DNA of 60,065 nt. Source: a virus. Lineage: Duplodnaviria; Caudoviricetes. Below are positions 1-24,542 of this stretch, piece after piece. Within the stretch, counting starts at the first letter, position 1. Each line of letters starts with the position of its first letter. Below the pieces are notes generated by a model. That model saw only the letters and a list, made by a program, of their open reading frames with translations. It made no database searches and was not told the DNA's origin. The translations under genes and the position numbers were made by a program. The stretch is from positions 1 to 60,065 of the IMG/VR virus record IMGVR_UViG_3300025120_000052; one strand, written 5' to 3'.

Positions 1-146
1 ATTTATTCGAAGCACCTAACCCAACAGAGGATGTTAGTGTTGAGGTTGAGGTCATGGAGCCTTCAAGTACGCGGACTCAACCGATTCAAGTTACTCCTGA
101 TAGCCCCACTCAGGGCGGCATCAATAAAGAGAACAGAGAACTACAA
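1..146 (+). repeat. Terminal direct overlap, copy 1 (circular assembly junction)
   Basis: Identical to 59920-60065 except position 20 (c) vs 59939 (a). Confidence 0.97.
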
Positions 147-3100
147 GAGGTAAACCAAGCGGAGATGGACAAGGCTCTTGTTGAGCAAGACCTTGTAAGG
201 AAACAAGAGAAATCTGCTCAGCTTGATACAGCACGAGCCATTGAACTTGGTAAAGAATCTACCAAGGCTATGCTTGCTCAAGTAAATGAAGAACTCATCT
301 CACTAGAAGAAGAAGAGGTAGTTCCTAAATTGAGAAGTCTATTTAAAGGACGAGGGTTTACGTTTGAAGAAACAGGTATCGGAGATAAAGTTCGTGTCCG
401 TACTACGGACGGGATGCACTCGTTAGATATTTCTTTAGACAACTTCCTCAACTCTAGCGATGTGGCAGAGTCTGCTGAACTGCAGACGTTTTTGCGTACC
501 CACATTAACCCTGAAATTGCAGCACCTAACGAAGACCAAATCAGCAAGGCTTTGCGTGCACAAGAGATGCGCGATTCAGAAAGATGGAATGATGACGGCA
601 CCGCATCTACGGTAAAGTTCATGTCCTATGAAGAGGATGGGGTATACAAAGTAGCACCCACTTTATTTCCTAGGAGTACCGTACAGAAGTCAAGTCCACG
701 TCAAGGTGATTGGCTAGAACTTGAGGGCGATGAAGCTATCAGAGAAGCTGAACGTCGAGGTGAGGTATTTAATTTTACTTCAGAAGAAGAGGCGGAGGCT
801 TTTGCTAAAGGCTCTTGGAAGACCACCAATGTCGTTGACATAGAGGCTCAGAAATTTTACAACGGCTACGGAAGGGATTACTTGTCAGACCGTAATGCCT
901 ACGACAACTACATGAACGCTCGTGACGCTCGTATTTTTCTTGAAGAGCAAATCGAAATCTCAGAAGACAATAGGTGGGGAGGAGTGGGTCAGTATCAGGA
1001 CTTGTCTCCTCAAGAGCAGGAGCAATACGCTGAGTATTTTAGAGAAGACGGAAGCCTTCGAGGAGATGCTGCAGAGATAGCCGAGAAATTAGATGATGAA
1101 GCGGCTGAACTATGGAAGATAGTTGACGGAAATGATTTCCGAGTGGCTCAAGAAGACTTGGATGTTTTCTTAGAGAAGCGGCATAAAGCATCTGCTCAGA
1201 CCGCAGCCAACATGAACTACGAGGCGAGAGCCATAGAGCAAGGGCTTTCAAACCAAGCACTAAATGAGTTTGGTATTACTCTAGACCAACTCACTACTTA
1301 TGAGCCTAAGTCTGCAGCCGAGCGTCTCAGACTAGATGAGATGATTAAGGTGGAGAATAGTGTTCGTGCTACTAAAACAGCAGCCGCTTTAAAATATGAG
1401 ACTGCCCTAACGTATTACGATACCAAGGCAAACAAAGACATAGGTGTAGAATTTACAGATAACCTAGAAGGGTGGGCTACAGCTACTGCTGATGGATACA
1501 AAAATGGTAAGGCCGCACAAGAGTTGCTTTACTTAGCTATGGGAATCTATGGGGAAGATGAGGTTGAGCAACGGTTAGCGGCTGAACGTATGACTGAGTG
1601 GATGAACTCAGTAGACGGAAGGCAATCGCGTGCCATGTCCCGTTTTGATTCTGCTGAAGATGGATTCAATAGAGAGGTAAGGAGCGCAATTGCTCGCGAC
1701 CCGTTTGAAGTAATGCTCACATGGGCGGCATCATCACTGTCTCAGATAGTTCCTTATGGTGCTAAGATTATTCCTTCCTTTGTTGGTGTAGGCGCAGGTA
1801 TTGGTGCAGCTTATGGAGCAGCAGGATTTAATCCCGTAACAGTTGCCGCAGGTGCAGGCACGGGGGCAACATGGGGATTGCGTACAGGATTTGCAGCTAC
1901 CAACCTTGTATTGGAATACACTAACGGTGTGCTTGACGCGGGCCGTGAGCAGGGATACAATATGAACGACCCTCAGGATGCCGCAAGAGCATTCTCTGAC
2001 TCAGAGGTTTGGGAGCGAGGTCGCGAAAGAGGTTTGAAGCGTGGCATACCCATTGCCGTAATGGATATTTTCATGGGCGGATTGGCGGGTAGAATTTTTA
2101 AACCTGTTGCTGTTGCGAGTAAAGCACGAAAAATAGGAGCATTTGCCGCAGAGCGTGCTATCGTTGACCCTACCGCAGAAGCTACAGGTGAGTTGCTTGC
2201 ACAATTAAATGTAGGCGACGAGATTTCAATCAAAGAAATCATGGCTGAGTTTGGTGGTGCAGTAGGAAACCAATCAAGCAATGCCGCTGTAAACATTTAC
2301 CGGTCTACTCGTGGAGGATACAATCAACGTATCGCTCAGAACATGATGGATGTAAGATTAATGGCGGCAGATGGAGCCACTGACTCTCAGATTCAAACGT
2401 GGACAAACAACATGAAAAAGCTAGGCAAGATTACGCCTGAGCAAGCGCAGAAAATTTTAGAAAATGTAGGGATACGTCGTGAAGCCAATGAACTTCTTGG
2501 GGTTACTGCTCCGTCTAGAATTGGAATTGGAAAAAAGAAACGAGCAAGGGTAATGGAACTGCTTGATGTACGAGCAGGTCTTCAATCATCTACTAATACT
2601 CGCGAGATTTTTTCTACAGAGATTAAAGCGATTAACGAAGAGTTGGCCGCTATTAGTAGAACCAACAATCTCGTGGAGAGTCCTGTCAATCTAGACAACA
2701 TCAACAGGAGAGATGGCCTTGGAAGACGTACCGTTCCAAGCTATAGAATTGGAAACACTTTGTACTCAAAGAATGATTTTCTTTCTTACATCGAAAACCT
2801 TAGTCCTCGAAGAGCGAACAAGATTTTAAAGGACAGTCAAGTAATTAATGACGAAGAAACTTCTCTCCTAGTCGAGGAGAAACTAAAACCATTTGTTTCG
2901 CAAGAGACAACAGAAACTACAGAAGATGCCATTCAAGAGCGAAGCACAGAGACGGTGGATGTACAAGAACAAACCACAGATGGCGAAGCAGTGGGAGAGC
3001 GAAACCCCGTCGGGGAATTTACCGAAGAGGTTGAAGTCGAAGACCAAGTTGGGGAGACGACGAGCGAGGAGACAAGCGAGGAAGTCTTAGACCAAGACAC

Positions 3101-6100
3101 TCAAGAAGCTGTTGATTTAGAAGCTGCCGACCTAGAGCAATCATTGGGTCTTGAGCCTGTGGCTGAACAGCCTGTGGCTGAACAGCCTGTGGCTGAACAA
3201 CCTGTGGCTGAACAACCTGTGGCTGAACAAGATAAGGACGCTCTTGTTCTCAGGTCTAACAAAGCGGAGCGGGAAGTAAAAGAAGTAAAGAATGACTTTA
3301 AAAAACAACGAGCAAAAATTAAAAGGCGTAAAGCATCGGATGCGAAAGACGCAGCATTAGCTGCTTTGGATACAGAAGAATCAACTGCTATTGAAGAAAT
3401 ACGTAAAGACTCTAGGATAGTAAAGGCAGCAATTTCCGTCGCAATGGGCAAAGGGTTGCCTAAGTTTGCACAGAAAGGAGGCAAGTTTGAGGCCACCGCA
3501 GAACAGCTACAACGAATAGCTTCTTTGGCGGGGGTTGAGGTAGAGACTATTACAGAAAGTGAGAGTTCAAACTCTCGTCCTGAATTTAGATTGAAGGGTG
3601 AGTCTCTTGAGTTACCTCAAAACGAAACCGACGCTGAGACTGTGGCTGTTCTTGAAGCCATGAATGAGGTGGGTGCTCAAATGGAAGCCGAACAGAATCA
3701 AGAGTTGTCCGACATTGATTCTCGTTTAAAGCTGAACAAAAATGATGCAGGTAAAACTCTTACCGTTGCTCAAAGAAAGACTCTTACTCAACGGGCCGAT
3801 GAGTTAAGACAGCGAGGTCGTGCACGAGACACTGAGTCTACCGCCACACCAATTGATATGGATGAGTTGAACTCTCGCCTTGACAATCCTCTCCCTACTA
3901 TCGAATGGAAAGTAGTAGAGGGCGTGCCTATGATTTTTAATATCTCCGACCAATTGCGTACGGGAGATGTAACGAATCCTGCCACAGGCAATACCATTGA
4001 TAACCTAAAGGGCGGCCTTGGGTTTACAGGAGTAGAGGGTCATCAAGATATGGCATGGGCTAGTGTTACTCGTGATAAAGCACAGGGTCAAATTGATAAC
4101 GCGACTAAAGTATACAACGACAACAAAGAGTTCTTTACTCGTTGGTGGAAAGCTAACCCTGAGTATAATGGGTTGGTTCCTATGGCTATTGTAAAGATGG
4201 GTCAGTCTTCTATCCTCAGTAATGAAGCGGTAGTTAGAGTTCTTGGTGACAACATTTCAGCGTTACCAATAGCCCGCAGAAAGAAAGCAGTAACGGCTTT
4301 TAAAAGAGCGGTCAAGGAGTCGATTAAGATTAAGCAAGACGCTATTAAGTCAGGAGTAAAAGAACTTACACAGAAGCAGTATGCTGCCTACATAAAGGAT
4401 GCTCAAGATGTTCTTGCTATGGTTGACGTGGTTAAGCCCACGACCATTGAGCAAATACTCACACCTGAAGCATTGTCTAATCTAAAAGGTATAACCTCTG
4501 TCAATGTTATTACTGATTTGGTAATGTCAGGTCAGCCTAATGAAGTTGGTGAGAAAAAGCGAAAGCCTTCTTACTCCTTTAAAACAGCTAAGGCTGTAAT
4601 AAAAGTTTTGCTTGGAGAGAATCCAACTGAAGAGCAGAAAAAACTTTTAAATGCAGGTGTGATTACTGACTTGATTACAGAGCCACAACTAGAGGGTGTA
4701 CCTCAGCGTTCGGTATTTATGGTTCAAGGAGTGGACGTTTTGAATCCTGAGGTTTTAGAAACTAATCACCCCAACTATCCCGTTGGGCCAAGAGGTAGAA
4801 CTATTGGTGTGTTGGAGCAACCTCAATCCGTGGTTGATTTGTTCCCTGCTGTAGCAAACAATGTTCAGCTTGGTATTGCTCAAGAACAACAAGGGAGACC
4901 TAGCCGTAGTGAACGTAGCCGATTGACTCAAGTGATTCCTGTTCAAGCAGGTATGCCTAACACAGAATTTGTAGGTGCAATCGCGGGCGTTGAAAATACA
5001 GTAAGCGTACTTGACTTTTTGAACCGCTCTTTCCCTAGTGTCACGTTGTCTACAGACACCGAGACATTCTCCAATGTCATGGCATCAGAGGGAGTAAGAG
5101 AGTATCTCAAAGGAGATGAGATTGTGTATGGTGTAACCAAGGACGGAGACATCTATCTAAACCCTGATGTACACAGTAGCGAGTCGGCTCTTTACAACAC
5201 CGCTGTGCACGAGTTCGGCCACGTTTGGACTGACTACCTGCAGACCACAAAGAAAGGCCGTGAGATTTACTCTAAAGGCGCGTCTTTGGTTACTCAGACA
5301 GCAGAGTATCAGAACCAATTAAAGAAATTTAAAAGTGAGGGACTCACTGAAGAAGAAGCAAAGAAGAGAGCCGTAAATGAAACGATGGCAATACTCATTG
5401 GAAACAAGGGGGAGACCATCATCAACGCTTCGCTCAAGCAGAAATTCCAAGCATGGCTTAACGCAACGTGGACATACATCAAGGAGACATTTAAAATGTC
5501 CAAGGATTTATCTCCTGAGGAGATTCAAAACCTTACCCTTGATGAATTCTTAGGCACAGCCCTTGCTGATATTATGAGCGGCAAGCCACTGAAGCTAACA
5601 GAGTCTCAATCTAAAAAGCTAAAGAATCCGGAGGCGGCTTTTAGTAGGTCAGACTCTATGGCTGACATCATAGCAAGAGGCAGGGCTGAAGGATTTTCAG
5701 AGGCATCTATCCGTCAGGTACTTAGGTCAAGAGGTCAGAAGGTAGCCGACATCAACGCGGCTATGTTGATGAGCATGGATTTGTTTAGCGATGCAGTGGT
5801 TCCATTTGAGTTTGGAAACATTGAAGGAGGAATGGATGCAGGTATCCAACTCTTCCAACAAGTTCAATCAGAACTTGCTGCCTTTGCGCAACCTACAGTT
5901 ACCCGAACTAGTCAACGGATGAGTGCGGCAGAACGTCGCGCAAGACTTGCTGAGTTAAGAGAGAACAACCCAACGCTGTTAGAGTTGTCTGATGCAGCAT
6001 TGCTCAGAAGGTTTCCGCGTCGTGGTGTAGCTGTAGAAACCACCACTACAGAAAAGACACCCGGTGAGATTCGACAAAAGGCTCTTGAGATTTTGCGTGC

Positions 6101-9100
6101 TAACCCTACGTATCAAGCGCAGACCGAAGCGCGGCAGATGGAGTTAGCTGTTGCGTTGGACAGAGCCATTGGTATTGGTGCAAATCGAAATGTATCTAAA
6201 GAGATACGTGCTATTCGAGGGACGCTGACTCAGCGTAAGCGAGCCGTACGTGAAGTCCAATCAGTCAAGCGTCAACTACGTCAGCTTATTCGTAAATCTT
6301 TACCTAAGTCAGATGGCTATAGCCAAGCCGACATCAATAAGATTGTACGTTCTGTCGAGCGTGTTAACGAAGATAACTTCAGAGTAGAAGTAGAGAAGGT
6401 TCTTCAGGTAGTAGAAAAGCAACGGGCCAAACTAAGGAAGAAGACTCTAAAGAAGTTGATGGCCGACGTAACTCGTGGAGCAAAGAAAACTACTACCGAC
6501 ACCAAGAAGAGCCGAGCAGGTTCACTGAGCGCACAGGGACAATCGTTTGCTGCACAGTTTAAGCGTGCTCTTAAACTTGCAATGGCATCTGATGCCAAGC
6601 AAGAGGATGCAATGGAGAAGTTCATGCAACTAGCCGAGGAACTGCAGACGGATGAAGCTATTGTGGCCTTGGCTAAGAGCGCATCCGGAGAAGTCTTGAC
6701 CTCAAAAGAAGAAAGCATTGTTAACCTAGCCGTTGCTCTAGACCTTGTAAAGAACCTACCGAACATGACGTTGGAAGAGGTTCAGGCATTGGCTAATGAC
6801 TACGCTGTTGCAGCCTCAAGGTCAAGACAGGAGTTATCTGAAAGCCGTAAAAAACGTGCGCTTGAGAACGATGCTCTAAGAACTAAAGTAACAGACGCAA
6901 TGCGTCGTTCGAATCCTGATTTGTTTGATTCAGATGGAAACATTATCGGACAGAACAGAAGGAGAGCCATGCTTGATGACGTTCGAAGGTATTGGAACGA
7001 GGGTAAAGGCCAAGGCTTGTCCGCCCGTATGAGGGGCCAAGCTAAAGCCGCCAAGCTGTACGTTGAAACATACAAATGGCGAAGTGCGTTTCAAGCCGTC
7101 AAGTCTTTGATGGATGGGCTAAAGCATCTTGGTACATTCATGAACTCCATGAACGATACGCTGTACGATGAGGTCTTTAATCGCCTCAACAAGATGGACA
7201 ACAATGCGTTGAAAGGGAGGTTTAATCAAACTAAAATCCTTAATGACTTAGGCTTTGAAGAAGTTCAACAGACTTTGTTCGACAACAAAACGCTGACCAT
7301 TGAAGGGGTTAGAGAATCTAAAACAGGGAAGACATACACTGATTCGTTTAGTAAAGACCAACTGCTTAGAATCTATGCGCTATCTCTGAACCCCGTTCAA
7401 AGAAAGAAACTAGAAGAGCAGGGTTTTACCACTGATAAAATGAATGAGATTAAATCATTCTTAGGCAAAGACGCTACAGACTTTGCAGACAAGGTGGTGA
7501 ACTATCTAAGCAATGAGTACTACGAAAGCGTGAATGATGTATACCGAGAAGTAAATGACATCAACCTTAACTACGTAGAGAACTATTTCCCAACGATTAC
7601 AACTCAAGCTGAGGTTAATCCAAAGCAATTATTTGAAGGTGACTTCAACGGAATCTTTAACGCAGAGAGTGCGCCTGCCCTGAGAAATCGTGAGGACATG
7701 AAGAGTGACATTGCTTTGAAGGCAGCAAACTTTACATCTGCACTTACCTCTCACATGGAAACGATGGAGAGATACAAGGCATACGCTGATGGAGCAAAGA
7801 AGCTAAACGTAATCTTCAGCACTGATGCAGTAGACACTGCGCTTACTATGCTTGGAACTAAGTCTATGGTTAAGCAGTCCGTTAACAATGCAGTTAACCC
7901 TGATTCAGCCAAGACAGCGTTAAATCAATCAGGTAAACTGTTTAACATTTTGCAGACTCAGTTTACTTCTTTTGCTCTTGCATTCCGTGTAGTTCAAATA
8001 GGCAAGCAGGCCACATCATTCATCAATGCATTTGAGAACTACTCGTTCCGAAAGAGTGGCAAACAAAATACATTGGTTGACCTGCTTCCATTCCTGTATG
8101 ACTACGCATCGGTTATCGCACGCTCTAGGTCTTACCACAACCTAGCAATGGAGATGTCTCCTACGTATCGCTACCGTGTAGAGCAGGGCATTGCTGCTGA
8201 CCTATCAGGTCTTGAGGCGGGTTCACCTACAAGGACAGGGTTTGAACAGCGTCAGACAACGGACGCTAAGCTGTTTAGAAAGTTCAAGACAGCGGCTGCA
8301 TCACCTACTATCTTGGGTGACTTGATGGGTGTGGCCGGATACATGGCTAACTATCGTCGCAACATTCGTAATGGCATGAGCGAAGAGAAAGCTGCTGAAG
8401 CATTCAATGAGTTCAACCAAACACAGCAAAGTAGAAGAGCGACAGAGAAGTCCATTATTCAACAGAACAGCAACTACATCGTGAGGGCTTTCACTATGTT
8501 TGGTTCGACTCCAATTCTGTACATCAACAATGTGATGCAGGCGTTGAACAACATCATCAGTCCCAAGAAAAAAACTACCACTCAAGATGTGAGAAAGCTA
8601 GTGTTAAACCTTGGCGCGGCTAACGCGGCATTCGTTGCTATGTCTAACCTTGGAATTCTTTTGCGAGGAGATGACGAGGAAAAGAAAGAAGTGTTGCGTC
8701 AAATACGAAACGCAACGCTTGGTCTTAATCTTCTCTACCAAGTTCCATTCATGGGTACGGTTGCCAAGTCAGCAGAGAATTGGATTACAGGCAAGCGAAG
8801 ACCAACAGACATTGGAGTCAATCCTTTTGTGTCTCTGTTCCGTAAAATGAAGAAGGCCGCAGAGGACGACAAGGCTGTGAGCGGTGCTCTTAAGACAGTG
8901 GTTGAGATTGGCGTAGGCGCACAGCTTGACCCGTTCATAACACTGCTCGAACAAGCACGTGACATGGATGAGGTAGAGATGCGTGAGGTCTACGACATCA
9001 TTGGCTACTCTGAATCATACCGACCTGAGGTAGATAAGGAAGGATACAGAGAACTAACTCCACGGGCAAAGAAAGAACAGGAGAAGAAGGAACGAATCAA

Positions 9101-9200
9101 AGAAAAGCAAGAGAGTAATCCCGCCTTCATGAGGAGAAAAGAAAAGGAAAAGGAGGCGCGTAAAAAGCGCAGAGACCTAGAGAAGTTTGGAAGAGATTAG
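54..9200 (+). CDS. Giant virion/ejection (polyvalent-type) protein with zincin HExxH motif; true start at 59688 across the junction (~3143 aa)
   Basis: 3048-aa ORF, open upstream into 59688; AVHEFGHVW at ~5208-5222; Gly/Ala-rich hydrophobic segment; last of three large genes after the tail genes. Confidence 0.8.
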   Translation: MEPSSTRTQPIQVTPDSPTQGGINKENRELQEVNQAEMDKALVEQDLVRKQEKSAQLDTARAIELGKESTKAMLAQVNEELISLEEEEVVPKLRSLFKGRGFTFEETGIGDKVRVRTTDGMHSLDISLDNFLNSSDVAESAELQTFLRTHINPEIAAPNEDQISKALRAQEMRDSERWNDDGTASTVKFMSYEEDGVYKVAPTLFPRSTVQKSSPRQGDWLELEGDEAIREAERRGEVFNFTSEEEAEAFAKGSWKTTNVVDIEAQKFYNGYGRDYLSDRNAYDNYMNARDARIFLEEQIEISEDNRWGGVGQYQDLSPQEQEQYAEYFREDGSLRGDAAEIAEKLDDEAAELWKIVDGNDFRVAQEDLDVFLEKRHKASAQTAANMNYEARAIEQGLSNQALNEFGITLDQLTTYEPKSAAERLRLDEMIKVENSVRATKTAAALKYETALTYYDTKANKDIGVEFTDNLEGWATATADGYKNGKAAQELLYLAMGIYGEDEVEQRLAAERMTEWMNSVDGRQSRAMSRFDSAEDGFNREVRSAIARDPFEVMLTWAASSLSQIVPYGAKIIPSFVGVGAGIGAAYGAAGFNPVTVAAGAGTGATWGLRTGFAATNLVLEYTNGVLDAGREQGYNMNDPQDAARAFSDSEVWERGRERGLKRGIPIAVMDIFMGGLAGRIFKPVAVASKARKIGAFAAERAIVDPTAEATGELLAQLNVGDEISIKEIMAEFGGAVGNQSSNAAVNIYRSTRGGYNQRIAQNMMDVRLMAADGATDSQIQTWTNNMKKLGKITPEQAQKILENVGIRREANELLGVTAPSRIGIGKKKRARVMELLDVRAGLQSSTNTREIFSTEIKAINEELAAISRTNNLVESPVNLDNINRRDGLGRRTVPSYRIGNTLYSKNDFLSYIENLSPRRANKILKDSQVINDEETSLLVEEKLKPFVSQETTETTEDAIQERSTETVDVQEQTTDGEAVGERNPVGEFTEEVEVEDQVGETTSEETSEEVLDQDTQEAVDLEAADLEQSLGLEPVAEQPVAEQPVAEQPVAEQPVAEQDKDALVLRSNKAEREVKEVKNDFKKQRAKIKRRKASDAKDAALAALDTEESTAIEEIRKDSRIVKAAISVAMGKGLPKFAQKGGKFEATAEQLQRIASLAGVEVETITESESSNSRPEFRLKGESLELPQNETDAETVAVLEAMNEVGAQMEAEQNQELSDIDSRLKLNKNDAGKTLTVAQRKTLTQRADELRQRGRARDTESTATPIDMDELNSRLDNPLPTIEWKVVEGVPMIFNISDQLRTGDVTNPATGNTIDNLKGGLGFTGVEGHQDMAWASVTRDKAQGQIDNATKVYNDNKEFFTRWWKANPEYNGLVPMAIVKMGQSSILSNEAVVRVLGDNISALPIARRKKAVTAFKRAVKESIKIKQDAIKSGVKELTQKQYAAYIKDAQDVLAMVDVVKPTTIEQILTPEALSNLKGITSVNVITDLVMSGQPNEVGEKKRKPSYSFKTAKAVIKVLLGENPTEEQKKLLNAGVITDLITEPQLEGVPQRSVFMVQGVDVLNPEVLETNHPNYPVGPRGRTIGVLEQPQSVVDLFPAVANNVQLGIAQEQQGRPSRSERSRLTQVIPVQAGMPNTEFVGAIAGVENTVSVLDFLNRSFPSVTLSTDTETFSNVMASEGVREYLKGDEIVYGVTKDGDIYLNPDVHSSESALYNTAVHEFGHVWTDYLQTTKKGREIYSKGASLVTQTAEYQNQLKKFKSEGLTEEEAKKRAVNETMAILIGNKGETIINASLKQKFQAWLNATWTYIKETFKMSKDLSPEEIQNLTLDEFLGTALADIMSGKPLKLTESQSKKLKNPEAAFSRSDSMADIIARGRAEGFSEASIRQVLRSRGQKVADINAAMLMSMDLFSDAVVPFEFGNIEGGMDAGIQLFQQVQSELAAFAQPTVTRTSQRMSAAERRARLAELRENNPTLLELSDAALLRRFPRRGVAVETTTTEKTPGEIRQKALEILRANPTYQAQTEARQMELAVALDRAIGIGANRNVSKEIRAIRGTLTQRKRAVREVQSVKRQLRQLIRKSLPKSDGYSQADINKIVRSVERVNEDNFRVEVEKVLQVVEKQRAKLRKKTLKKLMADVTRGAKKTTTDTKKSRAGSLSAQGQSFAAQFKRALKLAMASDAKQEDAMEKFMQLAEELQTDEAIVALAKSASGEVLTSKEESIVNLAVALDLVKNLPNMTLEEVQALANDYAVAASRSRQELSESRKKRALENDALRTKVTDAMRRSNPDLFDSDGNIIGQNRRRAMLDDVRRYWNEGKGQGLSARMRGQAKAAKLYVETYKWRSAFQAVKSLMDGLKHLGTFMNSMNDTLYDEVFNRLNKMDNNALKGRFNQTKILNDLGFEEVQQTLFDNKTLTIEGVRESKTGKTYTDSFSKDQLLRIYALSLNPVQRKKLEEQGFTTDKMNEIKSFLGKDATDFADKVVNYLSNEYYESVNDVYREVNDINLNYVENYFPTITTQAEVNPKQLFEGDFNGIFNAESAPALRNREDMKSDIALKAANFTSALTSHMETMERYKAYADGAKKLNVIFSTDAVDTALTMLGTKSMVKQSVNNAVNPDSAKTALNQSGKLFNILQTQFTSFALAFRVVQIGKQATSFINAFENYSFRKSGKQNTLVDLLPFLYDYASVIARSRSYHNLAMEMSPTYRYRVEQGIAADLSGLEAGSPTRTGFEQRQTTDAKLFRKFKTAAASPTILGDLMGVAGYMANYRRNIRNGMSEEKAAEAFNEFNQTQQSRRATEKSIIQQNSNYIVRAFTMFGSTPILYINNVMQALNNIISPKKKTTTQDVRKLVLNLGAANAAFVAMSNLGILLRGDDEEKKEVLRQIRNATLGLNLLYQVPFMGTVAKSAENWITGKRRPTDIGVNPFVSLFRKMKKAAEDDKAVSGALKTVVEIGVGAQLDPFITLLEQARDMDEVEMREVYDIIGYSESYRPEVDKEGYRELTPRAKKEQEKKERIKEKQESNPAFMRRKEKEKEARKKRRDLEKFGRD
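2926..3090 (+). CDS. Small basic protein MPFKSEAQRRWMY..., overprinted in another frame of the giant gene
   Basis: 54-aa ORF with ATG after an A-rich leader; resembles a small phage protein family I recall as stand-alone genes (MPFKSxAQRRWM...WExETP). Confidence 0.55.
   Translation: MPFKSEAQRRWMYKNKPQMAKQWESETPSGNLPKRLKSKTKLGRRRARRQARKS
3156..3230 (+). repeat. 15-bp tandem repeat x5 (CCTGTGGCTGAACAR; PVAEQ)
   Basis: Five consecutive copies seen directly. Confidence 0.97.
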
Positions 9201-15131: not shown

Positions 15132-15164
15132 AAAAAAAGAGGTGAGAGTTTGAACTCCCACCTC
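15132..15164 (-). terminator. Intrinsic terminator built on the palindrome motif
   Basis: Minus strand GAGGTGGGAG-TTCAAA-CTCTCACCTC followed by TTTTTTT, downstream of the SSB-like gene. Confidence 0.8.
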
Positions 15165-19195: not shown

Positions 19196-20266
19196 TTAAA
19201 AATTAAACCTAAGAACTTCCTCTTCAGTGAACTCACCTCCGCATCCCGTACAACTGTACGTTCCGCTTGGGTATTCTTCAGCAACGAGGTCGTTGTAGCA
19301 CTCAACACAAAAGGGTGAATTGTTTTCCTTCAGTTCGGGCCATTTCTCTTCTTCGAGGTCATCCCAAAGCAAGGACTGATTGCACTCAGGTACAGGCGCA
19401 ACGATTACTCGTTTCTTTGGGACAATGCCAAAGGACTTATGGAACTTTGCGCTAGGCAGGTGCTCGGTGTCGTTGAAGTAAATCCAACAGTTGATAAGCC
19501 TGCCGTCCTTCATCTTGATAGGCACTTGAGTTCTGCGATACCATTGAGGATGCCCTTCGAGTAGGTCAAGGTCTTTGAACGTAGCATCGGTAACCTTGAA
19601 CACATCCACCTCTACGTTGTGACCAATACCCTTCTTAGACAAGAGGTAAGGCAGGCCGTTGATGATTAGTGGATACTTGTCTTGGGTAACTCCCGCGCCT
19701 ACAAACTTCTCGCGTCTGAGATAGTTCATGTAGTTGCCATGACCACGCTTCAACGTGCCGTACACAGCAACGACGTTGTCCATGAGAACGTTGGCTTTGG
19801 AATACCAAATGCCATCACGCTTGATGTACAGGTCACGATTGTAAATCTGAAAGGACTTGTCTCTCGTGTTGATGCTGACGAACCGTGAGTCATGCTGTTC
19901 CAACTCGGCCTTCCATTGACTGCGAGGCATAGAGCCTAGCTTCTCAGCCAACACCTTGCTGTCGCACTTCTCCTTTGTACCGATGCCCTTGATTGTTCCG
20001 TTCTGCATGAGTAACTCATGGCTCTGCTCACCACATATGAATGGGTGAGTGTTAGCCCTGCCTACCGCACCTACGGTGGCATACCTGAAGTGAGCGATGA
20101 ACGGACGTTCGGTTAGTAGTTGCTCGTAATCCTCTGACTCATGGTATGTTGTCTCGAATGTGTCGAGGAATGTAATACCCAACCCGTGAGGGTTGATGCG
20201 AGCGGAGTTTTCCAACACCTCACGAGATATGGTGTTGGCCTTTTGTTTAATGATAATCACACACAT
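19196..20266 (-). CDS. Class II glutamine amidotransferase fused to gamma-glutamylcyclotransferase (GGCT/AIG2-like) with C-terminal Zn ribbon
   Basis: N-terminal MC, NPHG.G, HFRYAT.G, N.HPF, NGTI; VAVYGTLKRG, LD.LEG.P.WY.R; CxxC...CxxC. Confidence 0.88.
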   Translation of the reverse strand: MCVIIIKQKANTISREVLENSARINPHGLGITFLDTFETTYHESEDYEQLLTERPFIAHFRYATVGAVGRANTHPFICGEQSHELLMQNGTIKGIGTKEKCDSKVLAEKLGSMPRSQWKAELEQHDSRFVSINTRDKSFQIYNRDLYIKRDGIWYSKANVLMDNVVAVYGTLKRGHGNYMNYLRREKFVGAGVTQDKYPLIINGLPYLLSKKGIGHNVEVDVFKVTDATFKDLDLLEGHPQWYRRTQVPIKMKDGRLINCWIYFNDTEHLPSAKFHKSFGIVPKKRVIVAPVPECNQSLLWDDLEEEKWPELKENNSPFCVECYNDLVAEEYPSGTYSCTGCGGEFTEEEVLRFNF

Positions 20267-22374: not shown

Positions 22375-22521
22375 TTAATCGTTGATGAATAGTTCATCCA
22401 AGTTGTAACCCTTCGTCCGCTTGATGTAAGCGATGAAGTTGTCGATGTGCCTGCGGTCTTTGAACTCGCGAGTAACATACCAAGAGCGTCCGCCTGTGTA
22501 GAATGAGATTGTAGCTTTCAT
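22375..22521 (-). CDS. Small hypothetical protein (48 aa, MKATISFYTGG...)
   Basis: Hand-translated; A-rich leader. Confidence 0.65.
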   Translation of the reverse strand: MKATISFYTGGRSWYVTREFKDRRHIDNFIAYIKRTKGYNLDELFIND

Positions 22522-22531
22522 GTTGATTGAT

Positions 22532-22615
22532 TTAGGATACGAGATAGGTTAAGACGAGCAATGTGGTAGTGGCGATACGGAAAACCCACTTGACTTGTGA
22601 TTCGATATTGTTCAT
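22532..22615 (-). CDS. Tiny hydrophobic peptide (27 aa, MNNIESQVKW...)
   Basis: Fills the gap downstream of the ribozyme; start uncertain. Confidence 0.4.
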   Translation of the reverse strand: MNNIESQVKWVFRIATTTLLVLTYLVS

Positions 22616-22653
22616 GACGTTTCGATGGTAGGCCATCACCCGTTTGTTGGTTT

Positions 22654-22707
22654 GCTGTTTCGACTCTTTTGAGTCATCATCAGGAGCGATACACATCGCC
22701 CGACAGC
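22654..22707 (-). ncRNA. Type III hammerhead ribozyme (HHR-B)
   Basis: Minus strand GCUGUC^GGGCGAU-GUGU-AUCGCUC-CUGAUGA-U-GACUC-AAAA-GAGUC-GAA-ACAGC: three stems, core and GUC triplet, with one extra U after A9. Confidence 0.85.
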
Positions 22708-22740
22708 GGGACGAGAGTTTGAACTCTCGCCCCATCCCAC

Positions 22741-23757
22741 TCACCAACGAGGAAGGGAGACTCGCCCGTAGTGCTGTGGGTCTCGGCTCGCGGCCTCAGT
22801 CACCTCAGCCATCCTCCGTCGAGCACATCGTGTGTGCGCGTCAGGGAAGAGGTTGCCGTGGCGGTCAATCCAAGGCATCACCTCAGCGTTGACCTTGCCC
22901 GTTGCGATGAACTTGTCGAAGGACTTGCTCAACTCAATCACCATCGATGCCTTGTTCGTATCAGGCTCGTACATGGCGTTGATGATTGGAGTGAAGCGTC
23001 TGCGAACTTGAGCAGGAGTCTGACCTTTGACTGCTCCGTCAACCAAAACGTACATCAGGTCGTAGCGTAATCGCATCTGACGAACTGAAGTGATGCGAGA
23101 TGGGATGCGGAACTCAACTGCGTTGTCCATCACCTTCGCTACGCTGTACTTGCCTCCCCAACCTGAGCGTCCTGCTCGGCCAAACATCTCACCACGTTGC
23201 TCGTAAGGAAGCATCGTGATGTTGTTGCCTACGTAGTGATTGCTGATGCGGCCTCGGAACAAGGCTAGGATGATTCCGCAGTGGTTGCGCATCGCGGCCA
23301 TCAATTCCTGTCCGCTCATGCCTTCAACCGAGATTGTCATGTGGCCTCCACAGCTTGAGTTGCTTGGGCTGTAGCTGTCATCAATCACGCGCTCGGCTTG
23401 GTGCATCATGTCGTACACCTTGGTGCGCCATGCACACGCAGGTAGCAAAGGCAAGATGTTGGTAACGGCCTCGTAGCCACATGACGAGTCTCGCTCGAAT
23501 CCGCAGAACAACGGATACTCACGAACTGCGCCACGAGCGATTCGAGTCTTCTCAACTTCGAACCCGATGCCGTACTTAGCACCGACTGATGTTGCTGTTT
23601 GCATTTCGAGCGCATTTCGGTCAAGCGGATTGAGACCGATTGCGTCTGTGAGAGATGCTCCCTTGCGGAAATCACGGAAAGCAGGCTTGCTGTGGTATCC
23701 GCTCATTTCGCCCCTTCGAGGAACGTTGTCGTTGGTGTACTGAACTCCTTGTATCAT
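22741..23757 (-). CDS. Putative amidoligase (COOH-NH2 ligase, glutamine-synthetase-like fold)
   Basis: IGFEVE, DSS..YE..T, SCGGHM.IS, KY...., VEFR motifs. Confidence 0.75.
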   Translation of the reverse strand: MIQGVQYTNDNVPRRGEMSGYHSKPAFRDFRKGASLTDAIGLNPLDRNALEMQTATSVGAKYGIGFEVEKTRIARGAVREYPLFCGFERDSSCGYEAVTNILPLLPACAWRTKVYDMMHQAERVIDDSYSPSNSSCGGHMTISVEGMSGQELMAAMRNHCGIILALFRGRISNHYVGNNITMLPYEQRGEMFGRAGRSGWGGKYSVAKVMDNAVEFRIPSRITSVRQMRLRYDLMYVLVDGAVKGQTPAQVRRRFTPIINAMYEPDTNKASMVIELSKSFDKFIATGKVNAEVMPWIDRHGNLFPDAHTRCARRRMAEVTEAASRDPQHYGRVSLPRW

Positions 23758-23780
23758 GACCTTGTGTTTTAGTCAGGTTT

Positions 23781-23831
23781 GCTGTTTCGTCCTTTTGGAC
23801 TCGTCAGGCAGAGCACTCACTCTGCGACAGC
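23781..23831 (-). ncRNA. Type III hammerhead ribozyme (HHR-A)
   Basis: Minus strand GCUGUC^GCAGAG-UGAGUG-CUCUGC-CUGACGA-GUCC-AAAA-GGAC-GAA-ACAGC: canonical CUGANGA/GAAA core, perfect stems. Confidence 0.92.
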
Positions 23832-23867
23832 GGAAGTGAGAGTTTGAACTCTCACTCCCTTTGTGCC

Positions 23868-24542
23868 TCAGGAGACAAATGCCGCAACTCTCAACTCAAT
23901 GCCTGCGAACGCAGCAAACGCAATGATTGATTCGGCTAGTTCCTCACGGCTGTTGGTCGTATCAACAACTCCGTTCACATCGCAGTTGGCTACGATGTTT
24001 CCGCTCACGGGATGCTTAAAGCGGAACTGACCAAGGTTCGCTGATGCCGTTGGTGTAGCTTCAACCTCAGCCTCTTCGATGGCCTCTTCTATCTCCGCTC
24101 CTGTCTCCTCAACTTCGTCAAGCAAAGCGCGCGACCATTTGTCGAAATGCTGAATGGAACGTGGTGCTTTCTCACCTGCTCCTGCCAACCTAGTCTGCTC
24201 TCGCTTGTACTTGGTGAGCAGTGTTGGATGCTCGTCGATGCGAGTCTGAACTCGGACTAGCAGGTCAGGAGTTGTTCGTGCTCCGTAGCGCAATGCCTTC
24301 TGAACGAACTCGGTCTTGTTCCATGCACTTCCCAAGGCTTCCTCCATCTCAGCCTTGGCGGAGTCTGATGCGAACCAAGCGTATGCGGCTTGAAGATGCT
24401 TGGCCTGTTTGAGGCTTGCTTCGAATGCGGCCTTGCGGCTGTCGGTCTCAGCATCCTGTGCGCTGTGGAGTTGAGAGATGCTTCCTGATTCGAAGCGGAT
24501 TGAAGCGATAAACGCTGTCTCGATTTGCAGTAAATTTTGCAT
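23868..24542 (-). CDS. First early gene, hypothetical protein
   Basis: 224-aa ORF just after the divergent non-coding region. Confidence 0.8.
   Translation of the reverse strand: MQNLLQIETAFIASIRFESGSISQLHSAQDAETDSRKAAFEASLKQAKHLQAAYAWFASDSAKAEMEEALGSAWNKTEFVQKALRYGARTTPDLLVRVQTRIDEHPTLLTKYKREQTRLAGAGEKAPRSIQHFDKWSRALLDEVEETGAEIEEAIEEAEVEATPTASANLGQFRFKHPVSGNIVANCDVNGVVDTTNSREELAESIIAFAAFAGIELRVAAFVS

What the first reader, a model, noticed from the sequence alone, without database searches (positions are those of the whole stretch)
22654..23831. Two hammerhead ribozymes bracket the amidoligase gene in the early operon
Seen: both intergenic gaps flanking the 338-aa gene carry, on the transcribed (minus) strand, a complete type III hammerhead. 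HHR-A (23781-23831) has core CUGACGA/GAAA. HHR-B (22654-22707) has CUGAUGA+U/GAAA. Both have a GUC cleavage triplet. Stems I and II differ in sequence between the copies yet both pair (GCAGAG/CUCUGC vs GGGCGAU/AUCGCUC; GUCC/GGAC vs GACUC/GAGUC), so structure rather than sequence is conserved. Both have a UG-containing loop I and an AAAA loop II. Known: hammerheads leave 5'-OH and 2',3'-cyclic phosphate ends, and isolated ones have been reported in phage DNA. Inference: the phage cuts its own early polycistronic mRNA without proteins, about 40 nt after each upstream stop codon, releasing separately stabilised cistrons.
Basis: partly seen in the sequence, partly recalled or inferred. Interest (0 to 1): 0.9.

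Follow-up and report, generated by a model that had tools for sequence, protein, structure and literature searches.

The report
Two hammerhead ribozymes flank phage gene
Two genuine self-cutting hammerhead RNAs, each fused to a hairpin, sit on either side of one gene in a marine phage; this arrangement is already known from other phages and probably cuts a long message into separate gene-sized pieces.

Summary
Complete type III hammerheads lie at 23831-23781 and 22707-22654 on the minus strand, with the predicted cuts at 23826|23825 and 22702|22701. Rfam RF00008 scores them 42.7 and 30.2 bits. Both are below the 48.5-bit cut-off but significant. My motif finder and a family model found no other convincing copy in the 60-kb genome.

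Relatives support them strongly. In 35 related viral loci, the gap after the homologous gene holds:
- a type III hammerhead in 24 of 34 readable cases;
- a type I hammerhead in 1;
- a tRNA-like minihelix in 6;
- a core-variant hammerhead in 3.

Stems covary heavily. A hairpin of at least 6 bp abuts stem III in 36 of 41.

Self-cleavage is very likely. Cutting, co-transcription, "early" timing and stabilisation are all untested. A circular-RNA reading gets no family-wide support.

Clustered hammerheads flanking phage genes were published in 2011 (PMC3088659), so this is a new member of a known kind. This scan has reported the hammerhead/tRNA-mimic swap before on other DNA.

The parts
23868..24542 (-). 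Upstream gene, 224 aa, no family match
   Evidence: ORF list. No Pfam, PHROG or NCBIfam match.
23832..23859 (-). Hairpin A, 12 bp, one copy of the genome-wide GAGAG-UUCAAA-CUCUC hairpin. It ends directly at the first base of stem III.
   Evidence: MFE fold of 23862-23775. Repeat copies.
23781..23831 (-). HHR-A, type III hammerhead with core CUGACGA ... GAAA. Predicted cut after C at 23826.
   Evidence: (RF00008 42.7 bits, E 1.6e-7).
22741..23757 (-). 338-aa gene with a predicted glutamine-synthetase-like (amidoligase-type) fold. No sequence-family match.
22708..22733 (-). Hairpin B, 11 bp, same loop. It ends directly at stem III of HHR-B.
   Evidence: MFE fold of 22738-22648.
22654..22707 (-). 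HHR-B, type III hammerhead with core CUGAUGA plus one extra U before stem II. Predicted cut after C at 22702.
   Evidence: (RF00008 30.2 bits, E 4.5e-5). An identical element lies in relative L002/L007.
22532..22636 (-). First small ORF after HHR-B (34 aa from the ATG at 22636). The choice of start codon is uncertain.
   Evidence: The same sequence follows the hammerhead in L003.

Best explanation
These are two cis-acting type III hammerhead ribozymes in a roughly 60-kb marine phage. By its terminase the phage is related to Flavobacterium (Elemovirus), Cellulophaga and Tenacibaculum phages.

Shown here:
- Each ribozyme is a composite module of a stable hairpin followed, with no spacer, by the hammerhead. 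It lies in the gap between two same-strand genes.
- The core is intact, the helices covary across relatives, and the module is conserved after the homologous gene.

Inferred mechanism:
- The minus-strand genes are transcribed together.
- Each hammerhead folds and cuts after C17 (23826|23825 and 22702|22701).
- The upstream piece then ends in an 11-12 bp hairpin plus a 6-nt tail with a 2',3'-cyclic phosphate. This should resist 3' exonucleases and polyadenylation.
- The downstream piece starts with a 5'-OH and the folded ribozyme body, 65-68 nt before the next start codon. This should escape decay that depends on a 5' monophosphate.
- The short 5-bp stem III lets the products part.

Relatives fill the same gaps with type I hammerheads or with tRNA-like acceptor/T-arm minihelices, which are presumed substrates of host RNase P or RNase Z. 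What is selected therefore appears to be a cut at that place rather than the ribozyme as such.
For: Identity as hammerheads:
- Core and helices are read directly.
- RF00008 matches full length at E 1.6e-7 and 4.5e-5.
- The two compact hits compare with 0.075 expected per shuffled window.
- The MFE folds equal the hammerhead junction, z -2.8 and -3.0.

Conservation:
- 52 hammerhead hits in 41 related loci (148,798 bases) all lie on the gene strand, none on the other. Ten shuffled sets gave 0-1 hits.
- On 39 type III copies, stem I is 98.5% paired with 6 of 7 pairs changed on both sides, and stem II is 98.1% paired.
- The covariation score is 0.588, against 0.212 in shuffles (0 of 500 reach it) and at most 0.133 when partners are slid.

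Slot occupancy:
- Downstream gap of 34 readable loci: 24 type III, 1 type I, 6 tRNA-like, and 3 with none by the finder. Those 3 carry core-variant hammerheads by eye.

Hairpin module:
- 36 of 41 unique type III copies have a hairpin of at least 6 bp ending 0-1 nt before stem III. Shuffles gave 1.3 and random places 1.8.

tRNA-like elements:
- All 17 T-arm motifs lie on the gene strand.
- The T stem covaries at 5 of 6 pairs.
- 14 of 15 have an acceptor helix of at least 5 bp directly after it.

Literature:
- Tandem phage and prophage hammerheads cleave in vitro, and one set in vivo. Processing into single-gene mRNAs was proposed (PMC3088659, passages).
Against: - No cleavage, transcript or half-life data exist for this phage. 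The only RNA run holding part of the stretch is stored as contigs.
- Both Rfam scores are below the curated cut-off.
- HHR-B has an extra U between A9 and stem II, whose effect on rate is unknown here.
- One relative's upstream type I copy has a C in place of core U4. Three others have a mismatch at the first stem II pair. Some copies may therefore be slow or dead.
- The freshwater relative MW202828.1 has the gene but no hammerhead, and 24 of 34 relatives have nothing detectable before the gene. The ribozyme is therefore dispensable.
- No promoter or terminator was mapped. Sigma-70-type and recalled Bacteroidota-type promoter motifs are not enriched, so co-transcription is assumed.
- RNase P/Z cutting of the minihelices is inferred. 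ARAGORN at default settings and Rfam do not call them tRNAs.
Confidence: 0.7

Rival explanations
1. Leader trimming rather than operon cutting. Each gene or small block has its own start of transcription near or in the repeated hairpin. The hammerhead then only removes the first few nucleotides with their 5' triphosphate, leaving a 5'-OH message.
For: - In the cultured Flavobacterium phage NC_055853.1, the single type III hammerhead (36.3 bits) lies just upstream of the first gene of a leftward block, in a divergent region.
- The halovirus HF1/HF2 hammerhead lies 13 nt before the first gene of an early transcript (PMC3088659, passage).
- The hairpin is repeated before many genes, with its orientation following the gene strand.
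Against: - No promoter motif was found in either gap.
- The same hairpin closes two terminator-like sites with T runs, at about 15157 and 46142. This suggests it acts as an RNA hairpin at 3' ends.
- The modules start only about 10 nt after the upstream stop codon.
Confidence: 0.12
2. Circular coding RNA. The two cuts release an 1,124-nt RNA (23825-22702) whose 3' end can pair with the 3' arm of HHR-A. This rebuilds a hammerhead, so the RNA could be closed by the reverse reaction or by an RtcB-type ligase.
For: - In this window the two stem III sequences are identical, so the hybrid stem III has 5 bp.
- Ends with 5'-OH and a cyclic phosphate are the ligase's substrates (established knowledge, recalled).
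- This reading was also noted for this stretch by the first stage (e1-6275766).
Against: - Across 19 consecutive type III pairs, the hybrid stem III averages 3.79 bp within a locus, against 3.87 bp between unrelated loci (n=1,940). It has only 2 bp in 8 of the 19.
- Relatives that pair a type I with a type III copy (L008-L010, L041) cannot rebuild a hybrid ribozyme.
- Perreault et al. looked for circular or spliced products of tandem hammerheads and found none (PMC3088659, passage).
Confidence: 0.05
3. Passenger or recombination linker. Hairpin-plus-ribozyme modules spread between gene cassettes as selfish or neutral junction sequences, and cutting brings the phage no benefit.
For: - Gap contents change between close relatives: type I, type III, tRNA-like or nothing.
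- The HHR-B region is the most similar stretch between the window and L003, at 89% over 163 nt. The neighbouring genes are 65-79% identical.
- Some copies carry core changes.
Against: - All 34 readable relatives keep some cutting-type element after the gene.
- The cores stay intact while the stems covary.
- Strand bias is absolute at 52 to 0.
Confidence: 0.1

Closest known systems
Clustered hammerhead ribozymes flanking single genes or short gene blocks in prophages and phages (Perreault et al. 2011, PMC3088659; passages read)
   Same: - Several same-strand hammerheads in intergenic gaps of a phage genome.
- Intact cores.
- Proposed processing of a long transcript into gene-length mRNAs.
   Different: - Here the element is tied to one gene family across at least 34 related viral loci. 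The paper says gene identities are not constant.
- Each type III copy is fused to a hairpin at stem III.
- Relatives substitute type I copies or tRNA-like minihelices.
- None of this is tested at the bench here.
Rfam RF00008 Hammerhead_3 and RF00163 Hammerhead_1
   Same: Full-length alignment to the models, consensus core, three helices.
   Different: - Scores are below the gathering cut-offs: 42.7 and 30.2 against 48.5, and relatives' type I copies 27.3-31.9 against 34.
- Loop II is short (4 nt) and loop I is longer.
- HHR-B has an inserted U after A9.
Halovirus HF1/HF2 hammerhead before the early helicase gene (described in PMC3088659; passage read)
   Same: A virus-encoded hammerhead a few nucleotides before a gene of an early polycistronic transcript, with a mapped 5' end near the cut.
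   Different: That one is a core variant at the head of a transcript in an archaeal virus. These two are consensus-core copies between genes.
Host RNase III processing of phage T7 early mRNA, and the tRNA punctuation model of mitochondrial transcripts (both recalled, not read here)
   Same: - A long transcript is cut between cistrons.
- In T7 the cut leaves a hairpin at the 3' end of the upstream message.
- In mitochondria tRNA shapes mark the cuts, as the minihelices of the relatives may do.
   Different: Here the cutter is in the RNA itself. No host enzyme is needed for the hammerhead sites, and the ends differ chemically (5'-OH and cyclic phosphate).

Membership tests
Hammerhead ribozyme (type III) | Conserved core: C3 U4 G5 A6 N7 G8 A9, G12 A13 A14, the A15.1-U16.1 pair, and H17 not G | tested here: met
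   Both copies carry every core residue. HHR-B has one extra U between A9 and G10.1.
Hammerhead ribozyme (type III) | Three helices around the core, with stems I and II closed by loops and stem III open, supported by covariation | tested here: met
   The MFE folds give the junction. On 39 related copies, 13 of 18 pairs have changes on both sides and 89.2% of cells are paired, against 70.5% in shuffles.
Hammerhead ribozyme (type III) | Score at or above the Rfam RF00008 gathering cut-off (48.5 bits) | tested here: not met
   42.7 and 30.2 bits, and no match at gathering thresholds. The E-values are nevertheless 1.6e-7 and 4.5e-5 for the stretches searched.
Hammerhead ribozyme (type III) | Mg2+-dependent self-cleavage after position 17 | not testable with these tools
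   No bench assay was possible. The RNA run available is stored only as contigs.
Hammerhead ribozyme (type III) | Tertiary contact between loop I and loop II that gives fast cleavage at cellular Mg2+ | tested here: inconclusive
   Loop I (consensus UGAGUG) and loop II (NAAA) are more conserved than the stems in alignment A2. No three-dimensional model or assay was made.
Clustered phage hammerheads flanking genes (Perreault et al. 2011) | Two or more same-strand hammerheads that flank a single gene or short block in a phage or prophage | tested here: met
   - The window is a complete virus record.
- The two copies flank the 338-aa gene.
- The genome carries terminase, portal and structural genes.
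Amidoligase / glutamine-synthetase-like ligase (label given to the bracketed gene) | Match to Pfam PF12224 or to a related sequence family | tested here: not met
   - No Pfam match even at E up to 10 for 5 members.
- No PHROG, NCBIfam or PDB-sequence match.
- An ESM Atlas neighbour cluster carries PF12224 on 12% of its members.
Amidoligase / glutamine-synthetase-like ligase (label given to the bracketed gene) | Glutamine-synthetase-type fold | tested here: inconclusive
   The model has pLDDT 85.6. All top Foldseek PDB hits are glutamine synthetases, GmaS, PafA or Dop at E 1.6e-4 to 3e-3, but TM-scores are only 0.23-0.30.

The most novel reading that the evidence does not exclude
In this family of Flavobacteriia-type phages, the gaps between genes of one operon are slots for interchangeable RNA cut-site modules. 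The modules are:
- a type III hammerhead fused to a helper hairpin that stacks on stem III;
- a type I hammerhead;
- a miniature tRNA mimic (acceptor stem plus T arm with a UGG bulge) that would be cut by host RNase P/Z.

This would be a bacterial-virus counterpart of tRNA punctuation, in which self-cleavage and host tRNA-processing enzymes substitute for each other. The hairpin-capped 3' end and the 5'-OH end would set the lifetime of each message. I found no paper describing the swap or the hairpin fusion in four full-text searches. Earlier notes of this scan report the same swap on other genomes.
Probability: 0.45. Interest if true: 0.65.

Novelty: new member of a known kind. Interest (0 to 1): 0.42.

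Why it matters
The biological role of the many hammerheads in phage genomes is still open. A 2019 review says more work is needed to define the purpose of such ribozymes in polycistronic transcripts (PMC6765202, passage).

This case adds a well-defined comparative series:
- one gene family;
- one gap;
- at least 34 related phage contigs;
- three kinds of element in that gap;
- a conserved hairpin fusion.

A cultured relative, Flavobacterium phage vB_FspP_elemoF_6-3D, also carries a type III hammerhead. That makes the question testable: is the cut itself the selected function, and do the ends protect the messages? The two ribozymes on their own are not a surprise.

Tried and rejected
- Rfam at gathering thresholds found nothing in the window. 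The elements appear only in E-value mode.
- Sequencing runs: 24 runs hold part of the stretch, mostly marine metagenomes, and one is RNA. Laying X24, X5, X6 and X7 gave contig pieces only. The RNA contigs cover 22400-22653 and stop next to HHR-B. They are 151-nt unitigs, and a 56-nt high-depth DNA contig covers the shared ribozyme part, so the stop is probably an assembly break. I draw no evidence about cleavage or expression from this.
- Third hammerhead-like hit at 8598-8487 (minus strand, inside the plus-strand 3,048-aa ORF). It is 112 nt with long loops and a 3-bp stem III, and the family model does not support it. Rejected as chance.
- Circular-RNA reading: tested by hybrid stem III compatibility and found no signal.
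- tRNA genes: ARAGORN at default settings finds none in the window or in 8 relatives. With loosened thresholds it calls two degenerate tRNA-like hits, and the mitochondrial mode gives mostly noise. Rfam in E-value mode gives no tRNA-family hit on the minihelices in 10 loci.
- Promoters: the sigma-70 scan found fewer sites than shuffles did (6 against 13.2). The recalled Bacteroidota motifs occur at chance frequency. No transcription unit could be defined.
The stop codons lie 8-10 nt before the hairpins.
- Trans-cleavage of other hairpin sites, as in earlier notes on other phages: the other hairpin copies are not followed by the stem III/GUC sequence, and both ribozymes have closed loops I and II.
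- The distant homologues L042-L047 (24-29% identity) have no element and were left out of the gap table.
- Loci were not de-replicated. L007-L010 and L041 are the same contigs as L002-L006, and L014/L015 and L030/L038 are identical in the gap.
- Supplementary files of PMC3088659 (alignments, figures S1-S6) were not seen. They might already list relatives of these copies.
Full report
**What is there**

On the minus strand the region reads: gene of 224 aa (24542-23868), hairpin A, HHR-A, gene of 338 aa (23757-22741), hairpin B, HHR-B, then small ORFs.

- HHR-A (23831-23781) and HHR-B (22707-22654) each have the full hammerhead core, a GUC triplet, closed stems I and II and an open 5-bp stem III.
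- HHR-B has one extra U between A9 and stem II.
- The cut sites fall 42 and 39 nt after the upstream stop codons.
- The ribozymes end 23 and 17 nt before the next ATG.

**More than chance**

- Rfam at curated thresholds reports nothing in the 60,065-base window.
- In E-value mode RF00008 aligns full length to HHR-A (42.7 bits, E 1.6e-7 in 1,701 bases) and to HHR-B (30.2 bits, E 4.5e-5 in 141 bases). The cut-off is 48.5 bits.
- A descriptor search of my own found exactly these two on both strands.
- A wider version found them plus a loose 112-nt hit at 8598-8487 that I reject.
- Forty shuffled windows gave 0.075 hits on average.
- A covariance model built from the family and run without filters gave 77.3 and 53.0 bits for the two, which are seed members. 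The next best was 9.5 bits.
- Both fold into the three-way junction as the minimum-energy structure.

**The genome**

- The window is a whole IMG/VR virus record, rated 100% complete.
- It carries terminase, portal and structural genes on the plus strand and primase/helicase genes on the minus strand.
- Its terminase is 45.6% identical to those of Flavobacterium phages of the genus Elemovirus. All 87 matching records are Flavobacterium (68), Cellulophaga (15), Tenacibaculum (2), Maribacter (1) or an uncultured phage (1).
- Runs that hold the stretch are mostly marine metagenomes.
- A host among marine Flavobacteriia is therefore likely. This is an inference.

**Relatives**

- The 338-aa protein found 5 and then 41 related viral loci.
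- Rfam found type III hammerheads after the homologous gene in L003-L005 (45.7-47 bits) and type I hammerheads before it in L002-L005 (28.7-31.9 bits).
- L006 has a type III copy before the gene with all three stems different (41.1 bits).
- My finder gave 52 non-overlapping hits in the 41 loci, all on the gene strand. Shuffled sets gave 0-1.

In the 35 loci with close homologues, the gap after the gene held:

- a type III hammerhead in 24;
- a type I hammerhead in 1;
- a tRNA-like element in 6;
- nothing by the finder in 3;
- no sequence in 1.

The three "nothing" cases (L016, L030, L038) carry hammerheads with a mismatch at the first stem II pair. The gap before the gene held nothing in 24, a tRNA-like element in 4, type I in 3, type III in 2, a core variant (C in place of U4) in 1 and no sequence in 1. 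The conserved partner of this gene is therefore the downstream element (HHR-B), and the upstream HHR-A is a minority feature. The loci are not de-replicated.

**Covariation**

On an alignment of 39 distinct type III copies:

- 89.2% of cells pair, against 70.5% in shuffles;
- 13 of 18 pairs have changes on both sides;
- the covariation score is 0.588, against 0.212 in shuffles (0 of 500 reach it) and at most 0.133 when partners are slid by 1-3 columns;
- stems I and II are 98.5% and 98.1% paired.

The one row that MAFFT misaligned (HHR-B, because of its extra U) counts against the structure in these figures.

**The hairpin fusion**

- In the window each hammerhead is preceded, with no unpaired base, by an 11-12 bp hairpin (23859-23832 and 22733-22708).
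- Among 41 unique type III copies, 36 have a hairpin of at least 6 bp ending 0-1 nt before stem III. Shuffled upstream sequence gave 1.3 and random places in the same loci gave 1.8.
- The hairpin's sequence differs by lineage and is sometimes unrelated. Its position, not its sequence, is what is kept.
- After a cut, the upstream RNA would end in this hairpin plus six nucleotides.
- The window's hairpin belongs to a repeat with about 15 copies. Its asymmetric loop follows the direction of the genes, and two copies are followed by T runs.

**tRNA-like substitutes**

- In L021/L027, L025/L026/L036 and L029 the same gap holds a T arm with a canonical 7-nt loop. It is stacked on an acceptor-like helix, with a 10-12 nt bulge that contains UGG.
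- All 17 such motifs in the loci lie on the gene strand, and the window has none.
- The T stem covaries at 5 of 6 pairs.
- 14 of 15 have an acceptor helix of at least 5 bp directly after it.
- ARAGORN at default settings and Rfam do not call them tRNAs.
- L026, L029 and L036 carry such an element on both sides of the gene, where the window has its two hammerheads.
- That they are cut by RNase P or RNase Z is inferred from what is established for acceptor/T-arm model substrates (recalled).

**Mechanism**

I commit to constitutive cis-cleavage of a multi-gene transcript that separates cistrons and gives each product protected ends. The sequence and comparative facts above are shown. Co-transcription, cleavage and stabilisation are inferred. 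No promoter motif lies in either gap, but the promoter scans were uninformative overall.

**Rivals**

- Leader trimming of separate transcripts remains possible. It is what the position of the single hammerhead in the cultured Flavobacterium phage suggests.
- The circular-RNA idea fits this window, where the two stem III sequences are identical. It has no family-wide signal: hybrid stem III averages 3.79 bp within loci and 3.87 bp between loci, and 8 of 19 pairs have only 2 bp. It cannot work where type I and type III copies are paired.
- A passenger or linker role is argued against by universal occupancy of the downstream gap and by intact cores.

**The bracketed gene**

- It has no sequence-family match.
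- A 31-sequence alignment gave a confident model (pLDDT 85.6).
- Its best PDB matches are all glutamine-synthetase-type ligases, including PafA and Dop, but with low TM-scores.
- Together with the neighbouring amidotransferase/gamma-glutamyl cyclotransferase fusion, "amidoligase" is a reasonable but unproven label.

**What is known**

- Perreault et al. 2011 state that multiple hammerheads often flank single genes or short blocks in prophages.
- A 2019 review repeats the idea and says its purpose is undefined (PMC6765202, passage).
- A 2023 survey of viral structured RNAs mentions tRNA-like candidates but no hammerheads (PMC10690425, passages).
- Four full-text searches gave no paper on the hammerhead/tRNA-mimic swap or the hairpin fusion. 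Subscription journals and supplements were not searchable.
- Earlier AI notes of this scan describe the same swap in other phages. They are unchecked leads that I reached independently.

**Verdict**

This is a new member of a known kind. Its added comparative value makes the function of phage hammerheads more testable.

Noticed in passing
window 3563, 9204, 12524, 15146, 17755, 19180, 20288, 22094, 22715, 23840, 24781, 31979, 39011, 46142, 55460 (12-base cores): A 16-base near-palindrome (GAGAG-TTYAAA-CTCTC) recurs about 15 times at gene boundaries. The asymmetric TTCAAA form always reads that way on the gene strand. The copies near 15157 and 46142 are followed by T runs like terminators. Relatives have the same loop on their own stems (GGGGG.., GTGTC..).
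   Followed up: partly
L025:134-186, 893-945, 2367-2419; L026:95-147, 502-554, 1425-1477, 2366-2418; L036:648-700, 1386-1438, 2360-2412; also L019, L021, L023, L027, L029, L031: A family of miniature tRNA look-alikes lies in intergenic gaps of related phages, always on the gene strand. Each has an acceptor helix, a 10-12 nt bulge with UGG, and a T arm with a canonical loop, usually followed by ACUAA. ARAGORN (default settings) and Rfam do not recognise them.
   Followed up: partly
NC_055853.1 17865-17921 (minus), locus L050/L052: The cultured Flavobacterium phage vB_FspP_elemoF_6-3D carries an unannotated type III hammerhead (RF00008 36.3 bits). It lies just upstream of gp59, the first gene of a leftward block of small genes.
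   Followed up: partly
L002:2867-2916 (same contig as L007): The type I hammerhead before the homologous gene has C instead of the conserved core U4 (CCGAUGA). The same contig holds a second type I copy with an extra U after A9, like HHR-B.
   Followed up: no
window 54-9200 (+): A 3,048-aa ORF fills the first 9 kb of the genome and has no PHROG match at E 1e-5.
   Followed up: no
window 19196-20266 (-): A 356-aa fusion of a class II glutamine amidotransferase-like N-terminus with a gamma-glutamyl cyclotransferase (GGACT) domain lies about 2.5 kb downstream of the 338-aa ligase-like gene in the same strand block.
   Followed up: no
window 22570-22732 versus L003:3983-4141: The HHR-B region plus the start of the next small ORF is the best-conserved DNA between the window and this relative, at 89% over 163 nt. 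The flanking genes are 65-79% identical, so the module may mark a junction of exchanged cassettes.
   Followed up: partly
MW202828.1 47649-47708 and 45882-45925 (locus L048): A freshwater relative with the homologous gene has no hammerhead or tRNA-like element. It keeps a palindromic hairpin (GTGTCG-TTAA-CGACAC) in both flanking gaps.
   Followed up: partly
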